Of a DNA stretch of 64,000 bases, positions 3,242-56,862 are shown piece after piece. Under the pieces are notes generated by a model, which did no database searches, was not told the origin of the DNA, and saw only the letters and a list, made by a program, of their open reading frames with translations. The translations under genes were made by a program, and so were the position numbers. This stretch comes from Phoronis australis. Taxonomy: Eukaryota > Animalia > Phoronida. The stretch is taken from the NCBI GenBank assembly GCA_002633005.1, contig NMRA01000168.1, positions 3,129 through 67,128 on the forward strand, read 5' to 3'. Every line of letters starts with the position of its first letter. The first letter of the stretch is position 1.

Positions 3242-3305
3242 ATGGCACTTGCAGAAGCTTATCTTGTTCTCGCTTTTCTGATCTACGTCGATTGCGGTAC
3301 CACGC
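3242..3305 (+). CDS. Lectin gene exon 1 (signal peptide MALAEAYLVLAFLIYVDCGTT)
   Basis: ATG, hydrophobic core and donor C|gtacgt in phase 1. An alternative phase-1 donor G|gtacca lies after 3296. The exon is conserved in the paralogue at 56529. Confidence 0.75.
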
Positions 3306-10066: not shown

Positions 10067-10215
10067 CTCGTATCCTGGATTATAATGAATCCCAGTATGT
10101 GTTAAGAGACAGTCGAGGAGTCGATTACGCCACCGCACAGAAGCATTGCCAATCATTCGGAGGTCACTTGGCTACACCGTTAACTGACACTGAAAATGAA
10201 TGGATTAGACAAAGG
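10067..10215 (+). CDS. Lectin exon 2 (CTLD1 N-part: ..YATAQKHCQSFGGHLATPLTDTENEWIRQR)
   Basis: Acceptor ttttgcag| and donor |gtatgg. Carries the CTLD A...C...GGHLA...EN.WI signature. Confidence 0.9.
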
Positions 10216-16707: not shown

Positions 16708-16810
16708 GCATCTTTCTTCGGATTGAAGTTTCCTGTCTGGATGGGTCTACGTAGTTCCCAACAAAACGGATCATGGGAAACACCATTGCAAGACACCGTA
16801 ACGTACACCA
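16708..16810 (+). CDS. Lectin exon 3 (CTLD1 middle: ASFFGLKFPVWMGLRSSQQNGSWETPLQDTVTYT)
   Basis: Acceptor ccctcag| and donor |gtatga. WMGL corresponds to the WIGL motif. Paralogous to exon 6. Not in the ORF track. Confidence 0.9.
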
Positions 16811-24153: not shown

Positions 24154-24279
24154 ACTGGAATGAAGGAGATCCAAATCACAATGAGACCGATGAGCAATGT
24201 GGCTGTTTGAAAACAGATGGAACTTGGGAAAGCAAATCTTGCATCTCCGACCAAAAGAGTTATGTTTGTAAATTCAGAA
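24154..24279 (+). CDS. Lectin exon 4 (CTLD1 C-part: WNEGDPNHNETDEQCGCLKTDGTWESKSCISDQKSYVCKFR)
   Basis: Acceptor ttttatag| and donor |gtaaga. Has the W..G.P...C...W...C...YVC pattern. Confidence 0.9.
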
Positions 24280-26489: not shown

Positions 26490-26644
26490 AGAGCTTTTTC
26501 ACTTACGGTGAAAATGGATACCTGTTCCTAAACAAAGTTATGGGGAGTTACAATTACTCAGATGTCCAGACGCATTGCCGGTCGTTCAATGGGGAGGTTG
26601 TGGCACCTGTCGATTATGCGGAAAACAGATGGATCCTGGAAACG
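26490..26644 (+). CDS. Lectin exon 5 (CTLD2 N-part: SFFTYGENGY...YSDVQTHCRSFNGEVVAPVDYAENRWILET)
   Basis: Acceptor ccttcag| and donor |gtaatg. Paralogous to exon 2. Confidence 0.9.
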
Positions 26645-27065: not shown

Positions 27066-27171
27066 GTGACGTCACTTGGAATTACCTTCCCCATATGGAT
27101 TGGAGTTGATGACCAGGCAAACGAAGGAACATTTGTAGTGACAAGAAGTGGTGATCAACCGACGTACACAA
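27066..27171 (+). CDS. Lectin exon 6 (CTLD2 middle: VTSLGITFPIWIGVDDQANEGTFVVTRSGDQPTYT)
   Basis: Acceptor caatag| and donor |gtaaga. Has the WIG.DD...EG.F motif. Confidence 0.92.
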
Positions 27172-30640: not shown

Positions 30641-31216
30641 GTAAGAGGACCCTGAGCTTTAGAAGAATATTTCAGGAGTACTGTCACCTGGCAATTTACG
30701 TTTTTGTTGTGTGACTAAATCAAGTGTTTCTAATTCATTATTTGAAAAATACATGCTTTTTAAAAGTTGTAAGTTTTTTAAAGAAGTTCATATAGATTTA
30801 ATTGTTATGAATGTTTAGCAACATAGTGTGTTGTAAATAACATCATTAACCAATCACAAACTGCGAAACCCATTTCTGGCAGCCGTGGTAGATTCAAAAC
30901 AGCTACCACGGGTACCAGAATAACAAATTCTTGGCTGGTAGCTAAAAGTACCGTTAATACAGTTTAGCCAAAGTTATGGAAATTTTTGATCAGATTTAAA
31001 AATCTGGTCATGACAAGGCAGTCCATTGAAATTTTCTTGCTTGAATAGCCTGCGTCAGAATTTTTTGTAGTGTTTCCAGGGTCTTGAAAAAACAATAAAA
31101 TTGTTGAGAATTTGATCAGTCATGTTTAGGTAAGTAATGTATATATTATGTTATGCTTATTTCGAAAAAAATGACGTCAGGTTGAAAGGGGATCATTTGA
31201 AATACCTTTCAGTTAA

Positions 31217-32816
31217 AGGAAAATGCCACCCGATTTAATTGGTCTTTTTTACGGTCGACCTTATCTTGCAAAGAGGTATCGCGTTAACCTGTGAGGAAGG
31301 TGAGAAACGACGCTTGCGACGTCAGTGGTTCATATGCAGAGTGAATGCCGCTATGTTGCGGTACAACGTTCCCGCTTGTCCGAACTAAGCAGCTGCGAAG
31401 AAAGCGCGTATATCGTTTTTTTTTCACTTCCTCGAGAGTCCGAAATGCTTAGGAAGTGGCTCATGGTAGTGAAGAATGAAATGAACGCTGTAAATAGCAA
31501 GTATGAGGCCGTGAAACATCTCCGTGTCTGTGGCCGTCGACAGTGCCTGACGAATGCCGGCTTACCAAATAACTCCATACGTTCCGTTGTCTGAGCTTGT
31601 GCTCGGCGCCTCTCTAGTATTTCTTCATCACTGTATTCCTGTTCGAATTGATAGCCTGTAAAACTTAACGATCCACCTGCGAAGTCGGGACTGATGAGCT
31701 CTAGCTCAGTTGTCCTAAGTCGGGATTGCGAGTTGCCATGTTGGCGTTTGTTTACTGAGCGTTCAGTTTCAAAATGAATTATTCTCACCCTAACCAAAAC
31801 TTATATAAAACCGAAACAAAGTGTGTCTCATTAGATGCAATTTGTAATGCCTTTGGAGTGTTCGTGAGTGCAAATGATTTGAGAAGCCAGCAATGAATAA
31901 ATCACAGCGTTACCGGCTTTATGTGCAATGAAAACTAATTGACGGGACACCTAGGCCGTGTGAGCTCATGCTAATTTAGTGTTTGCTGGCAGAAACTGTA
32001 ATGAAACAACTCGATTTCCATCCCATGGCCAGGTGTTAAGGGAACCTTTATTTACATTTACATTACTAAAATTTTGACGGTGCTGTGGCCAACTTAAAGC
32101 GGAACCTGAATTCGCGGCCCTCAACGAGTAAGTAGATTTGCAGTTTCGTGGCTAATTCACCAACATAATCAGTTGCACATTACTTTGGCTCACTAGTATA
32201 GTATTTTCTTGACTGAAAGTTTAGTTTCCACTGAACTTTGGCTGGTTTATGTTCGTGATGTCTGATCAGTTTCCGAGCCACTGGNGCCGGCCGCGACGGG
32301 CCTGATCGGGCTCCGAGCCACTGTCCAGGCTAACAAGCGTTTTGTGTTTAGAACTCAAAAAATCACAAGTCTAAACAGCACAGATCTAGGTTCTCCTGTC
32401 TGTATCTCACTGAAAATACTTCGAAATTATATCCGAACAGACCCCAAATTCCTGCTACGGACCTTATTGGCCGCCGAACTTTGTATGCTACGATGTATCC
32501 AAATACCAATAAATCCGTAAGAGCGAAATAAAACAAAACGTTCTTTATAAGAACTCGATGTATTTTAAAGGGTTTTACATCGAAGTTTGATGATTTATTG
32601 ATGTTAAACGATGAGTTCAAGCGATAAGCTGACACCAGTAACCTGTGTTGTAAACTGCTGAATAGACTGCGTGTGAAACCGATTACGTCACTGGATAATT
32701 TCAACACCTCCGTCTGCCGTCAGGTGTCAGGTAACGCAACCGTACGTGTCGTTTTGGAGTAGAACTACTCGATCTAAATTGATACAAATTAGGTTGTTTT
32801 TGGGTGACATGCTCCT
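31217..32816 (+). mobile_element. Kolobok-like DNA transposon (non-autonomous)
   Basis: TTAA TSD (31213-31216, 32817-32820) and TIR agga(aa/gc)atg(c/t)caccc. THAP relic FFSLPRESEMLRKW..RVC at 31345-31540 and an opposite-strand GYQFEQEYSDEE motif. Contains an N at 32285. Confidence 0.8.
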
Positions 32817-33504
32817 TTAAGCAGGATTGCGCTAAAATACATGTTTTGCTGATGCGAACAAAACGAACTGCAAAGAGTATTTAATTTGTCTGTGCGAGCA
32901 TCATTTGCATAGAGTTCTAAATGAATGAACCCAACAACGAGCAGTAATGAAACCATGTTTGACATTTCTTATGTTTTCCGAAAAACTTCCAACCATTTCG
33001 TAACAGATAATTGGTTGTTTGATATCACTTCTACACTGGAAAATGTAGGTATGACCAATCAATACTATGTAATGGAACTGCATCAGCCTTTGTGAAAGCC
33101 TAGAGTTCTGTTGTTGTACATATACTTCACCCAAACACTTTTAAAAACTTCGTTGCCAAAACCACTTTTAAGCAACTTTAACCTGAAAACGCACTTTTCC
33201 ACAAACAACTTCACTTGTACAAGTGAATGAATGGTGACATTGTATCATTCACTCATTTTACTAATTCATCATCGGCATATTACTATAAAATGTTCAACTT
33301 TAAATTCAAACAATACACATATGAATGAGATGAAAATCGTATTCATGAGACTGTTTTTAAGCTCCTCACTACATGCCAGGGCCCACTGTGAGCATAATAT
33401 TCCTGTCATATGAAAATTGGTGAAATAATCATTTATTTGATGACAATGCGGTAAAGTTTGCCCCAAAGTGAGAGGCAGTCATCAATTAAACTGTTATCGC
33501 GCAG

Positions 33505-33627
33505 ATTGGGGTGGCGGTGAACCAAACAACGCTGGAGGTGTTGAGGACTGCGCGACGTTAACTATTACAGGAATTTGGAATGACGTCCCCTGTTGGCTTG
33601 ATTACAGTCTTGTGTGTCAATTACCAG
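33505..33627 (+). CDS. Lectin exon 7a (CTLD2 ligand loop, EPN/WND: WGGGEPNNAGGVEDCATLTITGIWNDVPCWLDYSLVCQLP)
   Basis: Acceptor cgcag| and donor |gtaaag. Canonical EPN, EDC and WND Ca2+-site-2 motifs. Confidence 0.95.
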
Positions 33628-36600
33628 GTAAAGTACAAGTGTGCGTTCTCTGTAACAACGCAATAATAGCGTTCTTCATCTTTTGTCAAGCGACAGTGAG
33701 TTTTGTGTCTTTTAATTGCGAGAAATGAAGAGAAAATCAACGAAACCAAACCAGAACAGTAAGTCGAGTACGCCTATTTTCAAAACCCAAAGACGGTACT
33801 GGCGCAGGAATGAGGCACGAGATTATTTATTATTATGCGCTAACTGCGAAGCGATACTATATAATGTAAGCCTAACAGCAGACAACGGTATATTTTGGTC
33901 GATCGTCGTCTTTGTCTATTGTTACCTAAAGTTACATTATCTAATCTGTCTAAGTACCGACTGTACGGTGTCTTATCCCAAACTCAGGAATGGCCTACGC
34001 CCGTAACGTTTGTAATTTTTTTAAATAGATGTACTGATTGTAAGCTTGTGTTCGTTTACCTCAATTTTATGCGCCCACATGTTCATGTGTGGGTGCTTGT
34101 TGCCGTCATCACTGTCTGGCATCTGCTGCTGTATCTTGTAAACACTTTGCTGACGGGTTCTTAATGATATTTGGCAGACGGTTTCTAAGCCTATGAAACT
34201 GACGACCGACAACGACGAGTTTCGGACCCATCGGACTACCGCTCTTCCCATAATAGTAATTTTAGCTTTTTTACATTTGTCTCTGTATCTGTGGAGTTCT
34301 TTGATGGATTTTTATGAAATTTGGAAATATGTTTCTGATAAGGAGACAACGGCGCTTTTCCGTTTTGCGGGCGGATTCTGCGTGGCCAGTTTAAAGGTTT
34401 TTGAGAATGTTTGTAATACCACTGTATCCGCCAAACCGCCCAAGAAAGCTCATTGTGAGAAGTGTTTCTGACGAGAAGACCGTGGCTCACGCTGATTTTG
34501 GACAGGGGCCACTGCTCTGGCTACCCTAATGGCAATTTCGTGTTTTTGGCGCCCGTAGCTGTATCATCTCAACCTTTTGGCGATCTTTTTAGTGTTTGGC
34601 ACATGAGTGGCAACGGATGACGACGAGTTTCAGACCAATCCTACTGACTACAGCTTTGCTCACTAATGGCGATTATATGTATTCTACGTTTGTCTCTGTA
34701 CCGTTTTAAACTTAATTGGGGAATTTTCGTGAAATTGGACAAGCGCCACCTAGTGATTATTTCTGTTACTTCGTCTGCTTTTTTTATCCGCCATACTGCT
34801 CAAAGGATCCCTATGTAACTTGGAGTTGTGTTGCTAATGAGAAGGCCATGACTGAAGTTGATTTTACGACACGACTGACTACTGTGGGATACCCTAGTGA
34901 TGACTGCGTATTTTTGCGACCACGGTTGTAGCTCCTGATTCCTTTGCATGCGTGAACTATTGCACGAGTGTTTCTCAGTAAATATGACAACGGCTGCTGA
35001 TGGATCATGGCTCGGACTACCGCTGTACTCCCTAGTAATAATTTTAGTTCTTACGTTTGCTTCTATATCCTTCGAGGTCCTAGGCGGATATTTATGAATT
35101 TTTTCAGTTAGTTTTGTATTAGAAAGGCGACGATGATGAGGCTCTAATTTCTGACAGGTTAGACATATTCTTCACTAACTCGGTAATGGTCATTTTTATG
35201 ATGATGAAATACCTCTAGAATCACACCGTTTGCGGTGCAGTCGCGGTTACATTTCCACGCTTCGCGTTGCTCTTGTGCAACATTTTATTGTTCTGGTCGG
35301 TGAAGGTTACCTCTTTTTCATGCCAACAAAAACGGAAAACCATGTGTGAGGTCCAGTAGTATTAACCAAAAGGCGTTCCCCAGACAGAGCAACCATACGG
35401 GTTTCAGTAAGAAATTGAGAGCCTTGTCAAACCACAATAACAATGTAAATGGGCCTCCTCAGCTAATGCAGCAGAATCATCTTCAGAGCACAAACTATTA
35501 AAATTCTTCTTTGACACAATTTGTGGCTAAAGGAGTACCACAGGCTGCTGTAATCCTGAAATTGCGACAGCTTCTGCAGACCTTCGAACCTCAAATTGTC
35601 ATATTTTTTGTTGCTACACTCTTTAGGTTTGTCAATCTTTTACTAGAAGTACGCAAGTCGTCTCATGAGTATCAGATTTGTGGACACACTGAAGCTCAAG
35701 TGTATCCACTTCTCCAATAGCTTTACAGCTAACAGGTGGCGCTGCTCGGGCCAATTAGATCGTGTGACTTGTGAAAATAAACTACACACGTGGTAGTCTT
35801 TGTGGATGTTAACAACAAGAGAGTAAAAGCGTTTTTGTTTTCTTCGATACACTTCCACGGGGATTTAGGCTGGGGAAAGTTTTTCAATTTTAATGAACCG
35901 TCGCTTGGACGGTAGTGCGGAAATTAATTCTATTTACCAACCAATCTAAAATGTTTTCAAGGTTAGAAGTAGACTGAGCTTTCAACCTATGCATATTGTT
36001 TAAATCGACTTTCGTTTCAGTAGGCCAAATGTCATAGCATCGGGATCAAGCGCCTATGACACCTGACAAATTACTGGCAACAGAGCAGAAATACACATGC
36101 GCAGCTTTGAATATTTTTGATATTCAAAAGATAATACATAGGTCGCAATTTAGCATCAGCAGGCCGGGATGGATCCAGGATTTTTAAAAGGGTCGGATCA
36201 AGGATTTTTTAAAAGGGGGACCAAGTCAACAACTTGAAAATCTGATATCGCCAAAATCAAGAAAAAATGGGTGGCGGATCCCCTTGACCCCTCCCCGGAT
36301 ACGCCTATAAACAGCGAGAAAGAGTTATGTTTAAAAGACTTTGCCGTATTGTTTTCAAACTTGCATCATAAATATCCGAACAAAAATTGGTCAAATCGTG
36401 TGCCTTGGATTGCATTTGCGGGTAAAGCGCCATGTGATTTGTTATTACATGTCATGCCACGTGTTAGTGGTAAAGCTCTTGGTCGAGCGGTTTAATGCTG
36501 CTTCAAATTGGATAGAACTGAATAGAAAGTTAAAAACAGAAACAAGACGACCTTTCGATATTACTCAATATCATGATCAGGCATATATGTAATACAGTCA

Positions 36601-38742
36601 GTGCACAGTTGAAACAACACATGTATACATACAAAGTCGATAAAAATAGAATTGTACCCAATTATCACTTCATTGATGTCGATTATATTGCGGCAATTTG
36701 TGATTCGAACGTATACCCGAACTGCCACACCTTGAAGATCANCAGGCCGGGGTGGATCCAGGATTTTTAAAAGGGTCGGATCAAGGATTTTTTAAAAGGG
36801 GGACCAAGTCAACAACTTGAAAATCTGATATCGCCAAAATCAAGGAAAAATGGGTGGCGGATCCCCTTGACCCCTCCCCGGATACGCCTATAAACAGCGA
36901 GAAAGAGTTCTGTTTAAAAGACTTTGCCGTATTGTTTTCAAACTTGCATCATAAATATCCGAACAAAAATTGGTCAAATCGTGTGCCTTGGATTGCATTT
37001 GCGGGTAAAGCGCCATGTGATTTGTTATTTCATGTCATGCCACGTGTTAGTGGTAAAGCTCTTGGTCGAGCGGTTTAATGCTGCTTCAAATTGGATAGAA
37101 CTGAATAGAAAGTTAAAAACAGAAACAAGACGACCTTTCGATATTACTCAATATCATGATCAGGCATATATGTAATACAGTCAGTGCACAGTTGAAACAA
37201 CACATGTATACATACAAAGTCGATAAAAATAGAATTGTACCCAATTATCACTTCATTCATGTCGATTATATTGCGGCAATTTGTGATTCGAACGTATACC
37301 CGAACTGCCACACCTTGAAGATCACTATGTTGACAAAGACACCTTCCGGTAGTCAGTTTTATCTTAAGGTGCCTAGATGGGTGGTAGCCTCGGGACTTGT
37401 TTGTCTTTTGTGGATTCCTGGCTTGGCATGTATTAGAAAATGGAATTATTATCTAAACTTTTAAGCATGAACAATTGTCATGTGTTAAAAAGTAGACATC
37501 TGTTGCTCTTCAAAAGATATGCATGCCATAATTGCGTTTTTTTTGCTTTAACAGAAACTGTTTCGGCCTGGAGTTGACCGGAATTTGTTCGATGACCAAA
37601 CTGACTTTGCGGCGAAAGACGATATGACCCTGCCTTCGTCACAAACCAGTTTTTGATTTAGACCACTTATGGTTATGAAATTGGTCTCAAATCTTATAGT
37701 AGTTAAAATATGAATGATTTCTGGGTTCGGAAAGAACTGACAGGACTTTATTGTTTGATCAAAGCATGTCATTTCATTTGACGAGCACGGGCTGTAGGAA
37801 TAATGATCTGTCAAGTCTTAGCAAATACAAACATTGTTTCTCGTCTGAGTAAGGAAAAGTTGAGATCAACTTTATACTATTGAGAGGACTAAATCAAAAG
37901 AATGCGGGTTTGTTTGTTGCAACTTATTACTCGCTGTGACCAGCAAAATTTAAAGTTCATAAACCCCTGTTTTTACTATTTCAGGTGGGCTTTAAATTGT
38001 TTGGAGTTTTAGGTCGAGAAGACCTAACGAACTTCCACAAAATTTAGGTTTTTTTGACAAAGGAGTATATCTTTGATCGACAAAATTAAAGCTGTATTTC
38101 GTCCTGTTTAGCCGGCTGAAAAAAATGTAGCCTCATGATGCCGTCATATTGCTGTTCGTGGATTCCATATCCATTACCAAGAAGAACGTTCAAACCACCA
38201 GCGCCTCACTTCGGACTTTACTGGGGTTTGCAAACCCTAAAATTGTGCATTTGCGTGCACGTTTTGCCTCTTACTTCAGTTACCGGCTCGTTTGATTGGA
38301 TTGGCGTGGCAATGTTTTTAACCTCAGAGCCCTTTAGTTACGAATTCAACATTGCGAAATGCCGCTTTAACTATTCCATGTTCCGGAATCATGGTTTATG
38401 GCAGTGGTTCGTCTAATTCCAATTATATCCCCACCAGCGTGATGGGTTATAATTTATTTTGTCGTTTATAGCTCAAAACCGAATTGTCTGACATTGTATA
38501 GCGGTGCTCTTGGTGGTAGACTCCAAGTATTCTGCATTTGCCTTCTGTGATTTCTGGTACTGTCAATGAGAATGGAATTGTGATCTTAAAAACAGAATTG
38601 CGGCTCATAGAGATGAACTATAGCTCGTGGGCAAAGAAGTATTCTCATGAGTGAAGGACGTCCATACGGTCTATGAGGTGAGGACGTTTGTCTACCTCAG
38701 ACTTGCCTTGCCAATGAAACCAATTTTTATGTTTTTGTATAG

Positions 38743-38999
38743 GTCAGTGCACATTGGAAGCGCCGAGCATGGAATATGACAGCTATATACTCCAAACTGA
38801 AGGCATTCGGATTTTTGCGCGGTTGTCCTCTACGACTTTTCAAGTTGTTAAAAATGTGACGGGGGACGTGAAGATAATTGGCGGACCTCAACATTTCCAT
38901 CGCGAACTGTTCTGTCTGGAGTTTTGTTCGCGCCTCGACTGTTGTGCGTTTGTAATTTATTCACTCAACAAGAGTTGCACGTGCCTGAGGAAGAATTGA
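38743..38999 (+). CDS. Lectin exon 8a (terminal; Cys-rich PAN/Apple-like module)
   Basis: Acceptor tgtatag|. Phase fits exon 7a. Reads ...FCLEFCSRLDCCAFVIYSLNKSCTCLRKN*, with AATAAA at 39249. Confidence 0.8.
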
Positions 39000-39248
39000 G
39001 AAAATCGCAATCGCTGAAGCCACTTTGCTATTAATGCTGAGAAGATACAGTTGTCACCAAACCACACTGGGTACTTAAAGCGAAATGATCGGAGAGAAAA
39101 TAGTAGCGTGGATTCGCACGCACTACCTCTGTTGCAGCCAAATGTTCTAACGCTAAGCCAAATCCCACGCTCTTATCAGCAGGGTATTTTACGTCGGCCT
39201 TGATTTCAGCGAATGTCTTGTCGACAACGGCGAGAATTGACGATTTGT

Positions 39249-39254
39249 AATAAA
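39249..39254 (+). promoter_or_regulatory. Putative polyadenylation signal of exon 8a
   Basis: AATAAA ~250 nt after the stop, followed by a GT-rich tract. Conserved in the duplicate at 48539. Confidence 0.55.
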
Positions 39255-40303
39255 ACCACAAAACAACGGATTTTGGTGTTTTATGGCGTATCTCATCCCA
39301 AAAATGTGTTTTTCGGTCGTAAAACCGATAACGTCTCTTTGAGATTCTTGTCGCTTTTATGCAAAATTGGGGCCATATTTTAATTCTTGGCAAGACATAG
39401 AAACAGTTTTTATTTTGATAGGTTTCTCAATGTTTCGTCTTTGCTTCAGTATAAAATGAACACGTTTCTTTTGTCTATTAATGTTCTTAAAGTTAATTTG
39501 CAAGAAAGCACCTTTTTCAAAATCCTTCTTCCGGTGCTCGCTGGATATCATCGAACTAGAATGTATTTTTAACAGATATGATTTTGTGTTCATTGTTTAT
39601 TTCATACATGTTTAATTTACATAATCTATTTATTTTAAACTGTAAATAAATTCCGCATTATAACAGATGACCGTTTTAATGGGAGTTCGTAGAAACGACT
39701 TTTTTACATTCAACATGTATTTCTATCTTGTATATCTGTAGCGGATATGTACGACGATAACTAGACATCCTGAGATCAGTTATTCGGTTCAGGTTTACTT
39801 TTATGTTCACGTAAACATGTGGCTGTTGCGAAACCCCTTTTGGTAACTGTGACGGGAATCTGCCCCCGCAATTATATATTCGTAATACATAGATTTCAGA
39901 CTTTAAGTATGTTACCATGGACACCGACCTTTTGTATTCTCTGCGCTAGAGTTCTGGTGGTGTATGTTTTACCCAATCACTTATTAAAATATCGTTACCA
40001 AAACAACTTAAGCAAAATAAAACTGAAAACACACTTTGCCACAAACAATATCAATTTTACAATTGAGTGAAAGGTGGAAATGAACTCATTAACCAAATTC
40101 ATTGGCAAATTACCATAAAATGTACAGCTTTAGATTCAAATAATACACCTATGAATGAGATGAAAAACGTATTCATGTGAGAGTTTAAAGCTCCCACTGT
40201 GAGCATAAAATTCCTCTCATATACAAAGTGGCCAATTAATCATTTAATTGCTGGAGATTCGATAAATTCAGAGGCAGTCATCAATTTAATCGTTTACGCG
40301 CAG

Positions 40304-40426
40304 ATTGGGCTGGACGTCAACCAAGCAGCTCTGGAGGTGGTGAGGACTGCACGACGTTGTTTTATACTGGACTTTGGAATGACGTCAACTGTGAGCTTGA
40401 CCACAGTCTTGTGTGTCAAATACCAG
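40304..40426 (+). CDS. Duplicated exon 7b (QPS/WND: WAGRQPSSSGGGEDCTTLFYTGLWNDVNCELDHSLVCQIP)
   Basis: Same length (123 nt) and phases as 7a. Acceptor cgcag|, donor |gtgaag, no stop or frameshift. Confidence 0.8.
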
Positions 40427-40651
40427 GTGAAGTACAAGTGTGTGCTCTCTGTGACAACACAATAATCTCGTTGTTCGTCTTTTGTCAATCGTGTGATTTT
40501 TGTGCAACTACGCAAACGACTTTAGCTACCAGCAATTAAGAGAAAATCCAAATAAAACAAACCAGAACACTAAGTCGGGTACGCCTATTTTCAAAAGCCA
40601 CAAACGGTACGGGCGCAAGCCCATCATCAGTGTGGAATGAGACACAAGATT

Positions 40652-41290
40652 ATACAATGTAACAGGAGGCAACAGAAAATTTTACATTAAAGAAAACAAC
40701 AATGGATTTAAGTCGACATGTTTTGGTGTCATTTATTAAAACACCATCATCAGAAGAGAGAATGCCGTGGAGACCCTAGCTAGGCCCAGCAACAAGTAAT
40801 GAAGCACAGATACAGTCAGTTACAGGGAGTGACAATGAACTATATCAACAATGACAATCTGTGGTGTGCCAGTTGCCTATTGAGATTGGGCTTGCACCAA
40901 CTGATGTGTAGAGCTTCACGAATTTCAAGCTCCTTTGTTGTTACTGCCTGGTCTATTATTGCAAAGTCATTGAAAGAGCACTGCTGATAGCAATGATTGG
41001 AGCTCTGTAGGTGAATATTTACAAGTGAACCTCTGTCAGAATTTAGATGTTCCTTGGTCCTGGTTTTCAAATGGCGAACAGTTTCGCCTATATAGCTGGA
41101 GCCACATCCAGCACAGATAAATTTGTACAGTACCCTAGACCGTAGACTCATAGGAATTTTGTCCTTAGGATTAAATAAATTCGACGGTTTCAGAGACTTG
41201 AAAGTTAATACAACTCTTAAGTTTTCACAGTAATCATTCACCAATTTGTTGAGTTTTCGTTGATCAATCTTGGCGTAAAACCCAACATTG
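40652..41290 (-). mobile_element. 5'-truncated Penelope-like element (GIY-YIG endonuclease plus 3' pLTR)
   Basis: VLYKFICAGCGSSYIGETVRHLKTRTKEH...LEIREALHI...KPNLNRQ (40840-41244). Hammerhead-like motif downstream. Absent from the paralogous intron 7a. Confidence 0.9.
40712..40758 (-). ncRNA. Degenerate minimal type I hammerhead motif of the PLE
   Basis: CUGAUGA, stem GGUGU/ACACC, then AAAAC-AU-GUC. The G of the conserved GAAA is replaced by A. Confidence 0.55.
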
Positions 41291-42060
41291 TTCTAGCTCG
41301 TGACTCCTTTGCATGCATGATCTTTCTGAACTTTTGCAGTGTTCCTCAAAAAATAGTGGGTGCCAACGGATGACTGACTACTGCTGTAACCCTTCTTTGT
41401 AATTTTAGTTTTTCATTTGCCTTTGTATTCTTAGACGTCATGGGCGGACTTTTATGAAATTTGGAAATTAGTTTTGTGTTAGACAGACGGCGATGTGGCT
41501 CTTATTTCTGACAGGTTGGACGTATTCTTCGCTAACTCAGTGGTGGTCATTTTTATGATACTATAAACACCCCTATAATCTCACCGTTTGTGGTGCAGTC
41601 GTGGTTAGACTTCAACGCTTCGCAGTGCTCATGTATAACTTTTTATTGTTTTGGTCGGTAAAATTTACCTCCTTCTCCTGCAAACAAAAACGGAAAAACT
41701 TGTGTGAGGTCCAGTGTTATTAAGAAAAAGGCGTTCCCTAGACAGAGCACCCATACGGGTTTCAGTAACAAACTGAGAGCCTTGTCATGTCCCAATTGCA
41801 CTGTAAATGGGACTCATGAGCTAGTGCAGCAGAATCTGCAGATTTTCACAGCATAAACTATTGCAATTGTTCTTTGCCACAGTCTGTGGCTTGAGGAATA
41901 CCACGGGCAGCTGTAACCCGGAAATTGGAACAGTTTGTGTAGACCTTTGAAGCACAAACTGTCATAATTTTTCGTTGCCACACTTTTTAAGTTGATCAAT
42001 CCCTTACTAGAAGTACTCGAGTAGTCTCGTGAGTATCAGATTTGTGAAAACACTGGCCAT

Positions 42061-44300
42061 TGTATTGTTAGTATTGTTCGTAGGACAGTGTTTGGTTGGA
42101 ACTCTTCCGCTTGCGTATCGCGGTTATTAATGCCTTCTGTGTAACAAACCCGATAAATCTTCGATTCACTATTTAGTTTATCTCGCGTGGTGTCAGCGAA
42201 ATGACTACAACCCGAGCTCCGAAACAGTTTCCGCTCACTAAAAATGAGACTATAACCTCATTTGATGATTGGAGGCAGAATTTGTTATACATCTGAAGGC
42301 ACCCCAGAACCGCAGCGACGTTCTGTTTTCGTGAAATTGGCTCATTTAGAACTTACTCTGGGACAAATTATTAACTTTTGTTCAGTCATATACCGTAATT
42401 CTATCGTGAGATCATGCAATTTCGTCCAGGACAATTGGCAGAAAATCCGCCAACATTTCAACTTCGCTTCCACAGGAGCACACTTCTTAGACCTAGAGTT
42501 CATCTCATTGGATCTCAATGAACGTCCTTAAGCCCTATTCTAGCGCCTCACTGCTTTTTTCAAAGACAATTTACTTATCGTTGGATGTGGCGTAACGTAT
42601 CATGCGGAAGCTGTCGACATTGGCGAAGACATGACTACCCTTCCCTCGAAAATACTGTCGTGTTTTTATGGTTATAGCTGGTCAACCCAGGACTACCCCC
42701 AACTTATTAAGCAACGATACGGCGCAAAGTTACGCAACAAGTCTCTCGCCTCCATCAAGCCTGACATTTCTATGAACTCACTTCTTGATGAGCTTAGGTG
42801 CATCGAGAACAACGTTCCCTGCGTATAACCAGCACTAAGACAAACCCCCCTCGCCACCGTAGAACGCCGTCGTGCGTCTTATACACCACCTCCCGCCGCA
42901 ATACCTCAGTCTCGGTGCCAGTTCCTCCTGCCTGACGACAAGCGCGCATTTCTCAAAGCACGGTCCACCGACGTTGACGACTCCACTAAGGAAGGCAACC
43001 CACAAGACGCAACATCTTACGACCAGTACTGTCCTGACTCTGCTGTCGCGCTTCACGTCCACATAGTTCTGTCTCCTTATCTTGACACGTTTGTGTCAAA
43101 CCATCGTGCGTTTGACATTTGACTGTGACAAGAAACATGATTAACGCATCATGTGCACGTTTGTTGAGCGCGAAAATTCGAAAAAATTCCCAAACCGCCT
43201 TCCATGCCAATGGTACATATACTTTACAGGTTGTGGGGGAAACTCGACTTGTCTTCACACGTGACAAGCATTCCTTCATTTTCGATGGTCTTCTTATCGA
43301 ATTCCTTGACGTAGACGTATTGGCAGCAACCATATTTATGACTTATCATCAAACCTCGCTCGGACAGCATTAGCATCCGCTCTAGGAGTGTTTCCCAGCT
43401 ACGGCCACAACGCGCCATTCTTGTCCCTGCTGATGGCAAGGTTCGCTTGTTCAACAACACCGATGAAACAGTATTTTTGCGAAGAGATGAGCAGTTTTAC
43501 CAGATGCACGCCGTGTTCACTCCTTCAAAGGTTACAACTGGATCCCCGACAGCCATCCAATGCACCCCTATCAACCCAAACTACCTTGCAACACCATCGT
43601 TTTGTCGCTGCTGATCCCCCCAATAGTTTGCATGCTACAGATCGGGACAAGTTCCACACCCTGCATCCCTAATTCGCCCACGTGTTTGATCCGTAATTCC
43701 CCGGGTACAACGGCGCCGCATGCCCGTTCGAGGCATTTGTCAACACGGATCCTACGAAACCCCCCGCAGAGGAAAGGTCGCCTCCCACAATACTCCAAAG
43801 ATAAGCTCCTGGAATTGCAACAAAAATTCAACGAGTTGGAGCTACTTAGAGTATTTGCTAGTGCAGAAGATATTGGTATTACAGTAGAATATCCCAATCC
43901 TTCGTAGATTCCGTGCTACGGAAGATTGCTCAAAAGAAGTTCATCATCAAGACTGATCTCAAGAGTGTTTTGTGTCAAAATCCTTTGTCACGAGATTCCG
44001 TGAAATATTGTGGCGTATCCATGCGATTCCGAGGTATCCCTGTGTACGAACGTTGCGCCATGGTTTTGCCCGGTTCGGAAACCGCTTTGAAATAGTAGAC
44101 GTGTCGTGTGTTGGGCGAGTTTTTGGAGGAAGGGGCGACGACCTCTACTGTGGTGGTCAGACTATCACAGATTTGTTGCCTGCATTGTCCACAGCCGACC
44201 TCCGTCTATCTTTAATGAAGACTGTCATATGCCCACGACGCACAGAAGTCCTCGGCTGGATTTGGGAGATGGAAGTGGCGCGGAGGTGAATACGGAAAAC
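42061..44300 (+). mobile_element. Decayed, 3'-truncated Ty3/Gypsy element
   Basis: TG-start LTR-like segment, PBS-like tggtgtcag at 42188 and gag start MTTTRAPKQFPLTKNETITSFDDWRQNL at 42201. RT pieces: [36 protein letters not shown]. Confidence 0.85.
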
Positions 44301-44353
44301 AGTATCACATAGCCGTATTTCACTCGACTGATTCAACGCGTATGGGATAAATA

Positions 44354-45188
44354 TAGATTATTACATGGCGAAGCCGTTATCTCCCGGGTAGATTTTGGAG
44401 AACTATCGCCCGAGGAGCGTCAGCCGCGAGGGTGATAATTCTACAAAAATCCACGAGGGCTCTAGATAAGGGGGATAACGACTGAGAACACATAATAATC
44501 TATTTATACCACATACTGAACGAGAAACATTGCAATGAATCGATCTACAATTCTCGACTTGCCTCGGCTTTCTACTTTCTATGTCAGAGGCCCGGGGTCT
44601 AAGAAAAGCCGAGCTATTTTTGTCAAATAATGCTTTTATTCAAAACCAATTGAAAAATAAAACAAAATAGAAGTAAAGTGAATCTGTAAATTAAGGCTTA
44701 GCAAGTATTATAGCTAACTATACATTTTATCACGCTAAGCTTCGACCGGGAAAATATCGTCTGCTAAAGTAGATTACCACTAGTAACTGACTATAATGCT
44801 CAAGTCAAAGGATCCCGACGACACTATACCCGCATTCAAATTGGAGATCGGTGATTTACAAGTGAGAGAAAAAAGATAAAAATTTCACTGAATTAAACTA
44901 ACGTTTTTATGGAAATTATGCGTCTTATTTTTCATGGCGTATAAATGTCGGTGCAATGCCCTTCGCTGAACATGCGGTTCTTGCGCGTGCTCATTTAAGT
45001 ATTCTATTTTCACGTTCGATGACGTCAGCCGCTGAGTGGTGTAGTGGTAAATTCGGCGACTCGAAACTCTTGAGGCCAGGGTTCGAATCCGGCCCCGGTT
45101 TCCGCCAAAATGTTATCTTACCAGGGAGAGAACTCTATGTGTTATTACACGGTTGTATTTGCTATTCGAGGCTAATATTGTGGTTTAA
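44354..45188 (+). mobile_element. Third copy of the hairpin + tRNA-like element
   Basis: Palindrome at 44354-44503, body, and a tRNA-like segment at 45031-45099 (tggtgtagtgg ... ggttcgaatcc). Confidence 0.7.
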
Positions 45189-46292
45189 ATTCTCTTACCA
45201 CAATATATTTGGGATTAGGAAAACAATATACATTACAAATGCATGCCCCCTTTTAGTCACCTATTGCACTACAACAGTTGAGGTCCTTTACGGTCAAACA
45301 TGATTTGTTCTCAAAAAATCAAAATACGTCGAGCCCAAAAGCAAAACTGAAACTTCCATAAACACTGTATTTTTGTCAATTTTACGATAAATTTCGGAAT
45401 ACTTTCTATCTAAAAGTTATAAGAACGCGCGAAGTGTCTGAACGTGCATCAGCCACAACGTCTGAGTTTCCTGCACAGATATTACTCAACGAAGTCAAGA
45501 AATGTAAGCAAACTTTAACTTAGAAATAGATTTAGCTCAAACTCTGACGAAAATAACGAAAATAGCAGATATGCGCCAAAAGCCAGTAGCTGCTGTAAAA
45601 TACAACTTGACTGCCGTGTCATGCACGCCGCAAAAATTCATTCATAAACATTTTGTGTGCTCGTATAGGCCTACTTGTCACACGATCTGCGATCATCATT
45701 GATAAAAGATGACAAACGACGCCAAAACAAGCGGTGCAATCTGTGTGAACCCACTTCTTTAAAGAATCCTCAGTAGGGCGCCCTCGTTCAAATACTTTTG
45801 CATCTCACGAATCTCGATATAATAACCACTGGTACAAACACGTACGTTGTATAACTTATATTTAATACCCAATGTAACATGTTTTCAAGGTTAGAATCAG
45901 GCAGAGCTTTCACCATATGCATGTGGTTTGAAGCGACTATCGTTTCAAATGTCATAACATCGGGATCAAGCGCATATGGCCCCTGACAAATTACTGGCGA
46001 CTGGGTAGAAATACGCGTGTATTAAAAATGAGCAGCCTATGATCATCGAGAAAGAATAAATTTTAAAGACTTTGCCGTTTTCTTTTCAAATCATGTACAA
46101 GTGATCGCAGTTGCCAGTAAAGCGCCACGTGACTTGTTATTACGTGCCATGCCAGGAGTTAGTGGTAAAGCCCTTGGTCGAGCGGTTTAACACTGCTTCA
46201 AATTGGATAGCACTGAATAGAAAGTTAAACACAGAAAAAAGACGCTGTGTTTTATATCGTCCTTTCGATATTACTCAATATCATGATCGAGC

Positions 46293-46295
<3 letters not shown>

Positions 46296-46325
<30 letters not shown>

Positions 46326-46453
46326 TGTATGTATGTATGTTTGCATGTATGTATGCATGTACGTATGCATGTAAGTATATGTATGTATGTATGTATGTAT
46401 GTATATATGTATGTAAGTATATGTATGTGTATGTATGTATTTATGTATGTATG
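46296..46453. repeat. (TATG)n microsatellite
   Basis: Imperfect TATG run. The paralogous intron has only atatatgt at this position (~36583). Confidence 0.95.
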
Positions 46454-48028
46454 TTACAGTCAGTGCATAGTTGTAACAGCATTAAGTACAAAGGCGAGAA
46501 AAATAGAATTGTACCTAATTATCACTTCATTCAACTGCATGTCGATTTGCGGCAAGTTGTGATTCGAACGTGTACCAAGACTGCCACACCTTGAGGGTCA
46601 CTATGGTGTCAAAAACATCTTCCGGTAGTCACTTTTATGGGAAGGTGCGTAGATGGATGGTGGCCTCGGGACTTGTTCGTCTTCTGTGGATTCCTGGCAC
46701 GGCATGTATTAGAAGATGGAATTATTTGCTAAAGTTTAAAGCATGCTGAAAAATAGACGTCTCTTGCCCTCTCAAACATATGCCATTGTGTTTTTATCGT
46801 TTGCTTGAATAGAAACTGTTTAGGCCTGAAGTTGGCAGGAATTTGACCATACTGCCTTTGCGACTGAATGCGGTATAGACCTGCATTTTGTCACAAACCA
46901 AAATTGATTTAAGTCACTTTTGGTTATTAAATTGTTCAAAAAATGAATGATTTCTGGGTTCGTGAAGAACTGACAGAATGTTAGTGTTTGATCACAGCGT
47001 GTCATTTCATTTGACGAGCATGGGCTGTAGGAATAATGATCTGCCAAGTCTTAGCAAATACAAAGATCACTTCTCGTCTGAGTAAGGACAAATTGAGATC
47101 ATTTTTATACTGTTGAGTGGCCTTAATCAAAAGTTAGTTTCTTTTGCAGAATGCAGAGTTTATTTCAACTTATTACTCGCTGTGACGAGCAAAGTTTAAA
47201 GTTCATAAACCTTTGTTTTTGCTATTTCAGGTGGGTTTTGAATTGTTTGGAATTTTAGGTCAAGAATATCTAACGAACTTCCACGTTTAGATTTTTTCGA
47301 CAAACGCGTCTATCTTTGATCGACAAAATAAAGCGGCATTTTGTCCAGTTGAGTCGGCTTAAAAAATAAGACCTCAAAATGCTGTCATATTGCTGTCCAT
47401 GGATTGCATACAGTGTTTCCATTACCAACAAGAACGTTTAAATCACCAGCGCCTCACTTCGTAGTTTACTGGGGTTTTCCAACCCTAAAATTGTGCACAC
47501 GAAAATTGCGCGTGTACGTTTATCCTCTGACTTGAGTTACCGGCTTACTCGATTGGATTAGCGTGGCAATGTTTTTAAACCTCAGAGCAACATTGTCAGC
47601 TTAACATCTGCGAAATGCCGCTTTAACTATTCCTTGTTCGAGAATCATGTTTTGTGTCAGCGATTCGTCTTATTCCAATTACTTCTCACCTTATTTTGCC
47701 GTTTATAATTCAAAACCGAATTGACTAACAATTTGTTCAATTTGGTGCTCAAGGTAGTAAAAAGCTTGTAACAGCAACATGGATTCCAAGTAGTCTGTAT
47801 TGGCCTTTTGATATTTCTGGTGCTGACAATGAGAATGGAATTGTATTCGTAAAAACAGAATTGCGGCATATGAGCAAAGAAATGCAGCTCGTGAGCAACG
47901 AAATGTTCTCATGAGAGAAGAACGCTGTCATTGAGAACGCCCATACAAGCCATGAGGTGAGCAAGTTTGTGTACAACGGATTTGTTTTGCCAATGAAACC
48001 GATTTTATGTTTTCATGTTTTTCTATAG

Positions 48029-48285
48029 GTCAGTGCACATTGGAAGCCCCAAGCATGGAATTTGACAGCTACATACTCCAAACCGAAGGCATTCAGATTT
48101 TTGCGCGGTTAACCTCTACGACTTTTCAAGTTGTTAAAAATGTGACGGGGTATGTGAAGATAATTGGAGTACCTCACATTCTCCATCCCGAACTGTTCTG
48201 TCTGGAGTTTTGTTCGCGCCTCGACTGCTGTGCGTTTGTAACTTTTTCACTTAACAAAAGTTGCACGTGCCTGATGAAGAACTGA
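48029..48285 (+). CDS. Duplicated terminal exon 8b (PAN/Apple-like)
   Basis: Same length (257 nt) as 8a. Acceptor tctatag|, all Cys kept, same stop position. Confidence 0.75.
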
Positions 48286-48538
48286 GAAAACCGTAATGGC
48301 ATACGCCATTTGCTATTAATGCTAAGAAGATAGTTTCACCGAACCATATTGTGTACTTAAAGGCATATTCTCGGAGAGAAAATAGTAGCGCGGAATCGCT
48401 CGCACTACCTCTGATCCCCTGTAGCAGCAAAGTGTTCTAACGCTGAGCTAAATCCCACGCTCTCATCAATAGGGTGTTTTACGCCGGCCTTGGTTTCAGC
48501 GAATGTCTTGCCGACAACGGCGAGACTCGACGACTTGT

Positions 48539-48544
48539 AATAAA
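48539..48544 (+). promoter_or_regulatory. Putative polyadenylation signal of exon 8b
   Basis: AATAAA at the position homologous to 39249, followed by a GT-rich tract. Confidence 0.55.
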
Positions 48545-48989
48545 ATCACAAAACAACGGGTTTTGATGTTTTATAGCTTATCCCATCCCAAAAATGTGTT
48601 CTTCGGTCGTAAAACTGATAATGAGTAAGTAGTGCATGATAAAGGCTTATCAGGTCTTTTAAGTGATTAATGTTTATGCCACATGCACCTTGATACGCTA
48701 GTGCAATAACTGCGTCTTGTGTGCACGTAATAACCTAGAAAGTTGTTTTACGGTCACGTGAGACGTTATTGTGCGGGAGTTGGCGAACAAAAGTGGGTTA
48801 AAACTAAAAAAAAATTATGCAAACATGCTGAACTTCACGCGTTTCGTATGGGTGAATGTTGTCAGCCTCGGTTGTTGTGCCGAGTAAGTATATTCACTCG
48901 GCCTTCGGTGTCCCGAAAATATTTACTTGGCACAGCAACCTCGTATGGGATTTGAAGCAGAATTCAAGTTCCCTGAATTCCAAAAATCT

Positions 48990-49660: not shown

Positions 49661-51989
49661 AAGACTGTAGTTTTTAATGACACTAATTTTGTGTCAGATT
49701 TTATATTACCACTTTTTTACCCACATCGGTGTACCAAGGCTAGTTGAATGGCAGCTCATTTGTGGAATCTGCAGAAAATTTGCTTTCAAAGTCTAGTGTT
49801 GGTTCACGTCGAGAATTGGTAGGGAAATGGTGATTTGGGGCAGAAAATAATCAAATAATTAATTATGTGTTTTTTTTTTTCTTTTTTTTCGGAGGTTGCC
49901 TTCCTTTTCCGGTTGAAGCGAAAGGGTGAAACATGAAACCTACTAAAGTTTCTTTGGTCATGTGGAGTGGTTTTGATGTGAAATGGCTCACAGCTTTTCA
50001 TTGTATTGGTAGAGTTTTCGACAGAGTAGAAGAAAGGTAGCAAGTCCAGTGACGTGTGCACTAGCTTCCAGGCGAAACCTAGTCAGAGAACTGTACTGTG
50101 CCTTCCATAAACGGAAGGTATACATTGCTAATACAGGGAGTTCGCAAGCGTGCCTGACGCATGCGCAGTAATGCACTAGAGAACTAAGTTGAGTCTAGTA
50201 TCTCAAAGACGAAAAAGACTCTGTCGAGTTACATACTCCTTTTTTAGAAATTTCCTGTTTACCCGGGGTTAACCACTCAAAAAAGTGTATAATATGACGT
50301 CACAGGGGCTGCAGTGACTTCAATCGCTGAGCTAAATAGGCATAATGGATAATGAAACGAAATCGAGGATTCTTGTATTGTTTTGTGCCTTACGGACATT
50401 GATCAGATGTAAGACAGTAGCTGTCTTTAGCATGTGAGACTGCAACCAACGAAATACACGATTCCAACTTCGCAAAATTTGTGAACTTTGTTTGCTTCGA
50501 GTCACTAGGAATTGGGCTACTATGATCTAATGTATTCATAATGTAGTGGGAGCGTATGACGTTTTGCTCTCTTATATCTAGGATTCAGCTCTCACATAGT
50601 AGATTGATAGTAACCAAGGGATCAGAGGTATGGACAATTAAGAAGACACTATCTACAGACAGTTGCAGGAACATTAGTCCTTCTCTGGGCCTGTATCCAT
50701 GCCTTTTTAAGTCAAAAACTACATAAAGAGAGCTTTACCGCAAGCCAATCTAGGTTTTAACAAGAATGACACTCTTCAACGCATATCGAATTTACTTGAA
50801 TTAATTTTGATATTTTCAAATATATTTTTAATTTCCCGTAATGTTCTATTAACAAAATGACCACTTCAGTTCAACGGTATTGAATCTCGTATTTTTGACA
50901 AAACGTACATTCGGCAACTTTCATTGACGAGATGTTCACGTTGGTATGATGTCTCTCGATTTGCGGAACTCTCTCAGTGTTCTAAACTGGCGAGAATGAA
51001 GGAAACGTTAATTTTGAGGCACCTGTGTTGATTTGTAGCAAATATGAGGCGATCTCAAATCGTGAAACTTTAATCCAAATTGACTGCAATTTAGCGCGTT
51101 TTACCCAAAAGTCAGGACTTGTTGGAGCTAACCTTTTACTGTCTGTAAAGCGTGTCCTGTCATTTGCCTACATTGGAGATCATTGTCATGAAATTATCTC
51201 AGTACTTTATAAATACTTGTTCCAAGACTTTATGTATTCATGTACTTAAGAGATTTCACCCAATTTCATATGACACTGTCAAGACATGGAAAAGTATGAA
51301 ATCTAGAGAATCACCCCCTGAATTGCTGGGATTTGTTGATGTCCTTATACATTCAGTATAAATTCAAGCAGAGCTGGAATGTTTGAATGTGAGAGTGAAT
51401 GTGTTTTTTTTTTCGTTGTTGTTTTTTTTTTCTTTTCTGTTGCATTCCATAGTTAATTTCTCTTTCTGCGAATAAACATATTTACAGCAAAAAATAAGTC
51501 AGGTTTTATATTTTTCATATTATCTGGTTTACAAAATGCGTTTGTCCTGTAGGAAAGTTGCTCATCACCATACACCGCCCGAGTCGGCCATGTCGCAGCC
51601 TGGGTTAATCTACAGTCCATATTATTTCGATTGTCTATACAACTCAACTTCGTAGTAGATGTCAGACCAAGACGCCGAGTGGTAGCCTATCCTTAAAAAT
51701 TTACCTCCATACCACGGTTATTTCGCAGAAGGGTGTGCAAAGTTTCTTTTACGATTTTTATATTTCTTAAGCCATTAGTAATGCATTAGTTTTTTTTAGA
51801 TCCGGCCGGATTATCTCCACATGTAACCGGATGCGGATTTTTCAGATGAGAAAGTATGACATATCATGTATCAGAACCAATACCAAGCGACCATTTCTGC
51901 TTTTGATAACTTCTCTCTCAATTGACCCTTTGGCAAACTATTTTTGAGGGGACTCGCGAAATGTTTTAGCACGGGTAATTTACAATTGA

Positions 51990-56528: not shown

Positions 56529-56592
56529 ATGGCAATCACGGAAGCTTATCTTGTTCTAGTTTTTCTGGTCTACGTGGAATGTGGTACCACAC
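56529..56592 (+). CDS. Exon 1 of a paralogous lectin gene (MAITEAYLVLVFLVYVECGTT)
   Basis: 64-nt homologue of 3242-3305 with donor C|gtatgt, inside a duplicated block. The rest of the gene presumably lies beyond the window. Confidence 0.75.
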
Positions 56593-56862
56593 GTATGTAT
56601 TTTTATGTGTATTTGAAATTTCATGGCAAATCTAGTAATTTTTAACTTATATGTGCACGTGCAAAACGTTTGCTAAGACCTTACGAGTCAGTGACAAAAA
56701 TCATGCCCAGTCTCGCTTAAGTGTTAGTATTTGAAGTTCACTTTGGCAAAAAGAAGAATTAACTCTGATGCATGTTAGGATCGTGCGCCCTTTTGTAGAC
56801 AGGCATATTCTGTACATTTCTTTTGAATTTATCTTTTCTGTTAGTTTTTATCAAAAAATATT

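What the first reader, a model, noticed from the sequence alone, without database searches (positions are those of the whole stretch)
33505..48544. Candidate splice-switchable lectin: duplicated terminal cassettes encode EPN versus QPS sugar-binding loops
Seen: exons 7+8 and the polyA signal are duplicated in tandem (7a 33505-33627/8a 38743-38999; 7b 40304-40426/8b 48029-48285). Both sets have identical lengths, the same phase-1 junctions, intact GT-AG sites, open frames and a conserved AATAAA, while the surrounding introns have many indels and different TE insertions. I saw no upstream exon or start codon for copy b in the 1.3 kb between 8a and 7b, so it could only be expressed by splicing from exon 6 (or 3). 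7a carries EPN...WND and 7b carries QPS...WND. Established: in C-type CRDs, EPN specifies mannose/GlcNAc-type binding and QPD galactose-type, and invertebrate variants such as QPS occur. Inference: one gene may make two secreted lectins of different glycan specificity by alternative last-exon choice, a compact pattern-recognition diversification system.
Basis: partly seen in the sequence, partly recalled or inferred. Interest (0 to 1): 0.85.

Follow-up and report, generated by a model that had tools for sequence, protein, structure and literature searches.

The report
Lectin gene with two swappable ends
An animal lectin gene carries two intact, tandem copies of its last two exons, one with a typical mannose-type binding loop (EPN) and one with a variant loop (QPS), so it could make two lectins that would likely prefer different sugars, but splicing into the second copy is unproven and that copy may be a leftover of a lost neighbour gene.

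Summary
The anatomy is real. A secreted-type lectin gene (signal-like exon, two C-type lectin domains, a PAN-like tail; 357 aa) ends in a tandem block holding exons 7+8 twice (about 33100-39331 and 39946-48621). Both copies are open, keep their splice sites and all 10 cysteines, and differ by 16-19% in introns, far above the roughly 1% seen at contig overlaps, so copy b is not a haplotype. Exon 8 shows purifying selection (dN/dS 0.30). Exon 7 changed 15 of 40 residues, including EPN to QPS, yet both versions match mannose-binding protein equally well. Copy b has no 5' exons of its own. The switch itself is untested: in about 19% of three RNA runs the gene was barely expressed, no splice junction of it was listed, exon-8 reads were mostly a-type, and only 3 reads were at least 95% like copy b. 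The 'duplicated polyA signal' is weak, because a-type reads run past it. The design is known (PGRP-LC, Pip, nematogalectin), and an EPS/QPS lectin pair is published. Best reading: a minor alternative 3' cassette (0.48); main rival: an orphaned end of a former whole paralogue (0.35).

The parts
3242..3296 (+). Exon 1: start codon and hydrophobic signal-peptide-like leader (18 aa), phase-1 donor
   Evidence: signal role judged by eye, no predictor run
10067..10215 (+). Exon 2: N-terminal part of CRD1
   Evidence: Pfam Lectin_C E 0.0043, below the curated cutoff
16708..16810 (+). Exon 3: middle of CRD1; same donor phase as exon 6
   Evidence: 34% identical to exon 6
24154..24279 (+). Exon 4: end of CRD1, with DPN and WES in place of EPN and WND; likely a poor Ca-dependent sugar site
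26490..26644 (+). Exon 5: N-terminal part of CRD2
   Evidence: 31-34% identical to exon 2
27066..27171 (+). Exon 6: last shared exon; phase-1 donor at 27171
32285..32285 (.). Single-N assembly gap of unknown size inside intron 6
33100..39331 (+). Duplicated block, copy a
   Evidence: 75-78% blastn identity to copy b
33505..33627 (+). Exon 7a: ligand-binding half of CRD2, EPN..EDC..WND
   Evidence: human MBP 1hup, 42.6 bits, ungapped
36155..37324 (.). Two 587-bp copies, 99% alike, around the N at 36742: unmerged contig overlap, an assembly artefact
38743..38999 (+). Exon 8a: 84-aa Cys-rich tail, PAN/apple-like (lead only), stop codon
   Evidence: sense a-type RNA reads in runs X1 and X2
39249..39254 (+). 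AATAAA shared with copy b; lies in a short dispersed repeat and a-type reads run past it
39332..39945 (.). 614-bp spacer with no homologue elsewhere in the window; holds a second AATAAA (39645) that copy b lacks
39946..48621 (+). Duplicated block, copy b, lengthened by repeat insertions in its intron
40304..40426 (+). Exon 7b: alternative ligand-binding half of CRD2, QPS..EDC..WND
   Evidence: MBP-A 1msb, 42.3 bits, ungapped; Pfam Lectin_C 22.7 bits
48029..48285 (+). Exon 8b: 84-aa tail, 72 of 84 residues identical to 8a, PAN-like (lead)
48539..48544 (+). AATAAA homologous to 39249
56529..56583 (+). Exon 1 of a downstream paralogue (13 of 18 aa identical); no further exon of it was found in the window

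Best explanation
This C-type lectin gene ends in two intact tandem copies of exons 7+8, and copy b is likely a minor or condition-specific alternative 3' cassette that would give a second lectin predicted to bind sugars differently. Shown: shared exons 1-6 encode a leader, CRD1 and the first two-thirds of CRD2; exon 7 supplies the Ca/sugar loop (EPN in a, QPS in b) and exon 8 a Cys-rich tail; copy b has no 5' exons; copy a is transcribed. Inferred: by default exon 6 splices to 7a, then 8a, and the RNA is cleaved after 8a. When polymerase reads through that site, exon 6 can join 7b, then 8b, skipping cassette a, as in Drosophila PGRP-LC and Pip. Because CRD1 lacks the WND motif, CRD2 is probably the only classical sugar site, so the choice would set the protein's specificity: mannose/GlcNAc/fucose-type for a, a weaker or galactose-shifted preference for b.
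For: Copy b looks maintained by selection. Exon 8 a/b: 13 nonsynonymous changes in 197 sites against 11 synonymous in 55 (dN/dS 0.30, Fisher p 0.007), with dS 0.23 close to intron divergence, so no sign of recent gene conversion. Open frame plus splice sites survive in 1.3% of neutral simulations, 0.2% with all 10 Cys. Exon 7 has three times the nonsynonymous rate of exon 8 (19/94 against 13/197, p 0.001) at equal synonymous rate. 15 of 40 residues differ, which decay of b alone gives in 0.4% of runs at d 0.095 and 5% at d 0.13, yet 9 of 10 core Trp/Pro/Glu/Cys/Asn/Asp positions are kept and both versions score alike against mannose-binding proteins (42.6 and 42.3 bits). The 7b acceptor is as good as that of 7a. 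No exon 1-6 copy precedes 7b on the same contig. Run X2 has 2 of 69 laid reads at 95% or more to copy b, on the sense strand, consistent with one b-derived fragment (pairing not shown). The architecture is common in animals (PMC6191721, introduction).
Against: No junction 27171>40304 or 40426>48029 was listed, though none was listed for copy a either. At 20 of 23 listed positions outside the repeat, the variant read letter is copy a's; in X1 nearly all covering reads carry it (for example 7 of 7 at three sites). Only 3 of 231 raw reads laid on the 8b region were 95% or more like b, against 25 at 90-95%. One b-like fragment could be read-through nascent RNA; the X1 depth profile implies unspliced reads crossing the exon-8 acceptor. 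Selection on b could date from a time when it ended a complete gene. Exon 8's amino-acid count alone does not reject neutral b (P 0.17). Copy b lacks the 39645 AATAAA region. No docking/selector pairing beyond 11-14-nt matches was found. QPS+WND lectin MmCTL5 binds six sugars weakly (PMC12842671, passages).
Confidence: 0.48

Rival explanations
1. Copy b is an orphan. It was the 3' end of a complete tandem paralogue whose promoter and exons 1-6 were deleted fairly recently, or a partial duplicate that has fallen silent. It is rarely or never spliced and has not yet decayed.
For: The locus is a lectin cluster: a paralogue starts at 56529, and its 5' region differs from this gene's by p 0.209 +/- 0.019, near the a/b divergence of 0.16-0.19, so whole-gene duplications occurred in the same period. 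This accounts for purifying selection on b without any splicing switch. Exon-8 reads are mostly a-type. A 614-bp unmatched spacer separates the blocks, so the junction is not a clean head-to-tail duplication. b lacks a's second AATAAA.
Against: It needs a recent loss, since no stop, frameshift or splice-site change has arisen in 380 coding bases. The deletion would have had to end inside intron 6, leaving an intact in-phase acceptor, and such an orphan would at once be available as an alternative cassette. One probable sense b fragment exists in X2.
Confidence: 0.35
2. Assembly error. Copy b belongs to a separate complete gene whose 5' exons were collapsed or mis-joined in a short-read assembly.
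For: The scaffold is fragmented: 7 single-N gaps, three flanked by unmerged 500-660-bp overlaps at 99%, and a 316-nt poly-C run. The gap at 32285 has unknown size. No DNA run was listed and no genome is held to check the join. Some X2 reads mix a-type and non-a letters, which hints at further copies or divergent alleles.
Against: 8a, the spacer, 7b and 8b lie on one N-free 15.5-kb contig. a/b divergence (16-19%) is far above the 0.9-1.2% at contig overlaps, so b is not an allele. Sequence hidden at 32285 would not change the 8a-7b adjacency.
Confidence: 0.14

Closest known systems
3' tandem cassette genes: Drosophila PGRP-LC, Pip, CG42235 (PMC6191721; abstract, introduction and passages read)
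   Same: Shared 5' exons followed by duplicated multi-exon 3' cassettes, chosen by splicing coupled with polyadenylation; in PGRP-LC the cassettes change microbial pattern recognition. [quoted passage not shown]
   Different: Here the cassette holds only the ligand-binding half of a C-type CRD plus a tail; use of the distal cassette is unproven; no docking/selector pairing was found.
Crayfish PcLec-EPS / PcLec-QPS (PMC9638144; abstract, two results sections and discussion read)
   Same: Two C-type lectins that differ mainly in the last exon, with EPS against QPS; recombinant proteins preferred mannose and galactose respectively.
   Different: The authors treat them as two duplicated genes, each with one CRD and no PAN-like tail; their second intron was not sequenced. 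Here both loops sit in one locus behind shared exons.
Hydra nematogalectin A/B (PMC4619090 and PMC4195985, passages; the primary paper PMC2972925 was not held)
   Same: [quoted passage not shown]
   Different: A galectin-like domain on a collagen stalk with a structural role in nematocysts; not a C-type CRD and no EPN/QP swap.
Mannose-binding protein CRD (PDB 1hup, 1msb)
   Same: Exon 7a aligns without gaps and keeps EPN, the Glu of EDC and WND; 7b keeps all but the EPN Glu and Asn.
   Different: No collagen region; tandem CRDs and a PAN-like tail. A sequence match over 40 residues is not orthology.
Prawn Rlec C-type lectins (PMC7536079, passages)
   Same: C-type lectin diversity from gene duplication plus alternative splicing in an invertebrate.
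   Different: Exon skipping and shifted splice sites in a multigene family, not a choice between duplicated terminal cassettes.

Membership tests
C-type lectin domain superfamily | Lectin_C profile or match to solved CRDs | tested here: met
   Exons 7a, 7b, 4 and 2 hit Pfam Lectin_C (E 0.0014, 0.00018, 0.00043, 0.0043; only 7b reaches the cutoff; exons 3, 5 and 6 gave no hit alone). 7a and 7b match MBP at E 4e-10.
Mannose-type Ca-dependent CRD (isoform a) | EPN, the Glu before the Cys, and WND | tested here: met
   Ungapped alignment to human MBP with all these residues identical.
Mannose-type Ca-dependent CRD (isoform a) | Ca-dependent mannose/GlcNAc binding | not testable with these tools
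   Needs a binding assay.
Galactose-type CRD (isoform b) | QPD motif | tested here: not met
   7b has QPS, not QPD.
Galactose-type CRD (isoform b) | Trp just after the QPD motif, lining the pocket | tested here: not met
   7b has Ser-Ser-Gly after QPS. CLEC10A has Trp271 two residues after Asp269 (PMC7404283, passages); its need for high galactose selectivity is recalled, not from a call.
3' tandem cassette (alternative last exon) gene | Duplicated terminal exons, same phase, open frames, no own promoter or 5' exons | tested here: met
3' tandem cassette (alternative last exon) gene | Transcripts joining the shared exon to each cassette | tested here: inconclusive
   Coverage of exons 6, 7a and 7b was about 0-2 reads per run; no joint of this gene was listed.
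3' tandem cassette (alternative last exon) gene | A working polyA site after each cassette | tested here: inconclusive
   a-type reads pass the shared AATAAA; no place where many molecules end was listed.
3' tandem cassette (alternative last exon) gene | Competing docking/selector RNA pairing (found in some members only) | tested here: inconclusive
   A single-genome inverted-repeat scan of 27000-40500 gave only 11-14-nt matches near either acceptor; no comparative data.
PAN/apple domain (exon 8) | Profile or fold match | tested here: inconclusive
   ESM Atlas: PAN clusters at 0.87-0.88 for 8a and 0.90-0.91 for 8b, with only 121-136 of 256 shared features. No Pfam hit. Single-sequence models of pLDDT 58 and 54 gave no significant fold match.

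The most novel reading that the evidence does not exclude
One C-type lectin gene flips the Ca-site-2 loop of its only classical sugar-binding domain from EPN to QPS by choosing between two tandem last-exon cassettes: the PGRP-LC design applied to glycan specificity, with the swapped loop under diversifying selection. My searches of the held library found no C-type lectin described with this layout.
Probability: 0.3. Interest if true: 0.65.

Novelty: new member of a known kind. Interest (0 to 1): 0.42.

Why it matters
If copy b is spliced in, the gene gives a natural matched pair: identical first 232 residues and two versions of the sugar-binding loop. That would test directly what QPS does against EPN, which the invertebrate literature leaves unsettled, and would show glycan recognition being tuned by 3' splice and polyA choice rather than by separate genes. 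It also suggests re-examining published EPS/QPS 'gene pairs' that differ mainly in the last exon. If copy b is an orphan, this is an ordinary birth-and-death event in a lectin cluster.

Tried and rejected
No whole genome is held, so flanks, further paralogues and the paralogue's 3' layout could not be checked. Run search with 8b: no RNA holder listed; four runs were added by species label and no DNA run was listed. Laying reads on 24100-40900 was swamped by repeat-derived reads and listed no joint of the gene; 37 joints were not shown. Homologue searches found nothing: exon 8a against longer proteins, exon 7a against longer proteins, exon 8a against 1.84 billion representatives, metagenome contigs, exon 8b against PDB sequences. 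So no outgroup, no lineage assignment and no polarised changes. Fold searches with low-confidence exon-8 models did not return a PAN domain above noise. Rejected: b as an uncollapsed haplotype (16-19% against about 1%); gene conversion as the cause of exon-8 similarity (dS 0.23); a private start exon for b; the conserved AATAAA as evidence of function. Exon 7 dN/dS of 1.36 is not significantly above intron divergence (p 0.40), so positive selection is suggested only. Earlier-finding look-ups by place and by sequence were empty. Literature searches returned 0 papers; searches were seen as listings, and only PMC3923563 from them was opened (passages).
Full report
Question and verdict. The anatomy holds. 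The switch is plausible but not shown, and an orphaned paralogue end explains the same data nearly as well.

Gene model. From the sequence I built eight exons on the + strand: 3242-3296, 10067-10215, 16708-16810, 24154-24279, 26490-26644, 27066-27171, then 7a/8a or 7b/8b. All junctions are GT-AG and both models give 357 residues without an internal stop. The product is a hydrophobic leader, CRD1 (exons 2-4), CRD2 (exons 5-7) and an 84-residue Cys-rich tail (exon 8). CRD1 has DPN and WES where MBP has EPN and WND, so I infer that CRD2 is the only classical sugar site. Exon 7 carries the Ca-site-2 loop of CRD2. The tail resembles PAN domains only by language-model features (0.87-0.91); Pfam, sequence and fold searches did not confirm it. 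The organism is an intron- and repeat-rich animal; I could not place it further.

The duplication. Self-comparison gives two blocks, about 33100-39331 and 39946-48621, 75-78% alike, separated by 614 bases with no homologue in the window. Aligned intron positions differ by 16-19%, while unmerged contig overlaps in the same scaffold differ by 0.9-1.2%, so b is a paralogous copy and not an allele. No copy of exons 1-6 lies before 7b. The scaffold has seven single-N gaps; those at 32285 and 36742 interrupt the gene, but 8a, 7b and 8b share one contig. No genome or DNA run was available to check that join.

Selection. Exon 8 differs at 13 of 197 nonsynonymous and 11 of 55 synonymous sites (dN/dS 0.30, p 0.007). 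Exon 7 differs at 19 of 94 and 4 of 26 (dN/dS 1.36); its nonsynonymous rate is three times that of exon 8 (p 0.001) but not above the intron rate (p 0.40). With b neutral since the duplication, no stop, no frameshift and intact splice sites occur together in 1.3% of 20000 simulations, and 0.2% with all ten Cys. The 15 amino-acid differences in exon 7 are more than decay of b alone gives (0.4% at d 0.095, 5% at d 0.13), and 7b scores as well as 7a against mannose-binding proteins. So b was under protein-level constraint for most of its history. That does not say whether it is used now. Against over-reading: the finding was selected for intactness, and exon 8's 12 amino-acid differences alone do not reject neutrality (P 0.17).

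RNA. The run search listed no RNA holder of 8b and added three raw RNA runs and one contig set by species label. About 18-19% of each raw run was read. On 24100-40900 the sense depth in the bins of exons 6, 7a and 7b equals 0-275 bases per run, that is 0-2 reads, and no joint of the gene was among those listed (37 were not shown). On the 8b region at 82% likeness, 231 raw reads were laid: 3 at 95% or more, 25 at 90-95%, and 203 below 90%, most of the last from a dispersed repeat at about 48484-48560. Depth outside that repeat was on the sense strand only, in X1 and X2, with none in X3. I compared 23 of the 40 listed variant rows with copy a, dropping the 17 inside the repeat (36 more rows were not shown): 20 carry a's letter and 3 sit beside indels. 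Copy a is therefore transcribed at a low level. X2 has two reads at 95% or more to b, and its allele counts fit one b-type read near the end of exon 8 and one running past 48660; this may be a single fragment and may be read-through. The X1 depth profile implies that two reads cross the exon-8 acceptor unspliced. These data neither show nor exclude splicing to 7b; they suggest b is the minor form in these samples.

PolyA. The shared AATAAA (39249/48539) lies in the dispersed repeat, has a 0.33-0.44 chance of surviving unchanged, and a-type reads cover the position about 60 bases beyond it (2 of 2 in X1, 4 of 5 in X2). A second AATAAA at 39645 is outside the duplicated block. The claim that the polyA signal was duplicated is therefore unsupported.

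Mechanism and rivals. The best reading (0.48) is a 3' tandem cassette: read-through of a's polyA site lets exon 6 join 7b and 8b. The two acceptors look equally usable; no docking/selector pairing stood out. The main rival (0.35) is that b ended a whole paralogue that lost its 5' part: a paralogue begins at 56529 and its 5' region differs from this gene by p 0.209, close to the a/b distance. A mis-join is third (0.14).

Specificity. Isoform a keeps the MBP ligand set. Isoform b has QPS, not QPD, and no Trp after it. Crayfish PcLec-QPS bound galactose better than mannose, and PcLec-EPS the reverse (PMC9638144). MmCTL5, with QPS and WND, binds six sugars weakly, and the same review calls the EPN/QPD rule simplified for molluscs (PMC12842671, passages). 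A change in binding is likely; a clean mannose-to-galactose flip is not assured.

Relation to known systems. Duplicated 3' cassettes are common, and PGRP-LC uses them to change pattern recognition (PMC6191721). Kassiopeia's authors warn that such clusters can also be tandem gene duplicates (PMC3923563, passages). Hydra nematogalectin A and B come from one gene by alternative splicing (PMC4619090, PMC4195985, passages; primary paper not held). Prawn Rlecs combine duplication and splicing (PMC7536079, passages). Four searches found no C-type lectin with an EPN/QP swap by terminal cassette, but the library lacks most subscription journals and I read no supplements. I rate this a candidate new member of a known kind, interest 0.42.

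Noticed in passing
window 55444-57490: Promoter region, exon 1 and start of intron 1 of a downstream paralogue (p 0.209 to 2278-3984). Both genes share the unusual exon-1 donor GTACCA. No exon 2 was found in the window.
   Followed up: partly
window 57658-62424: LTR retrotransposon in the paralogue's intron 1: 150-bp direct repeats 92% alike and an RT fragment at 59777-60181 on the minus strand; its frames are broken.
   Followed up: partly
window 11756-15142: Fragmented LINE-type element on the minus strand in intron 2, with endonuclease and RT Pfam hits.
   Followed up: partly
window 8710-9729, 36155-37324, 51615-52942: Three 500-660-bp tandem copies, 99% alike, each around a single N: unmerged contig overlaps that give an allelic divergence of about 1%.
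   Followed up: yes
window 1583-1899: 316-nt poly-C run ending at an N, probably a sequencing or assembly artefact.
   Followed up: no
window 30800-33075: Repeat cluster in intron 6 with by far the deepest RNA coverage of the stretch, from diverged copies elsewhere; it abuts the left edge of block a.
   Followed up: no
window 19930-21269 and 44340-45189: Two copies of an element with about 180-bp inverted arms, one in intron 3 and one in the intron of copy b.
   Followed up: no
window 40840-41292: 150-aa minus-strand ORF in the intron of copy b that looks by recall like a Penelope GIY-YIG fragment; no Pfam hit.
   Followed up: partly
window 48172-48188 (and 38886-38902): The a/b difference in exon 8 aligns as a 1-nt deletion and a 1-nt insertion a few bases apart, a locally compensated frameshift.
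   Followed up: no
window 48084-48341: Some X2 reads mix a-type and non-a letters, hinting at a third copy or a divergent allele.
   Followed up: no
window 50345-50394: A short ATG-started frame ending at a GTAAGA donor-like site, behind a TATA-like sequence; possibly the first exon of another gene, possibly chance.
   Followed up: no
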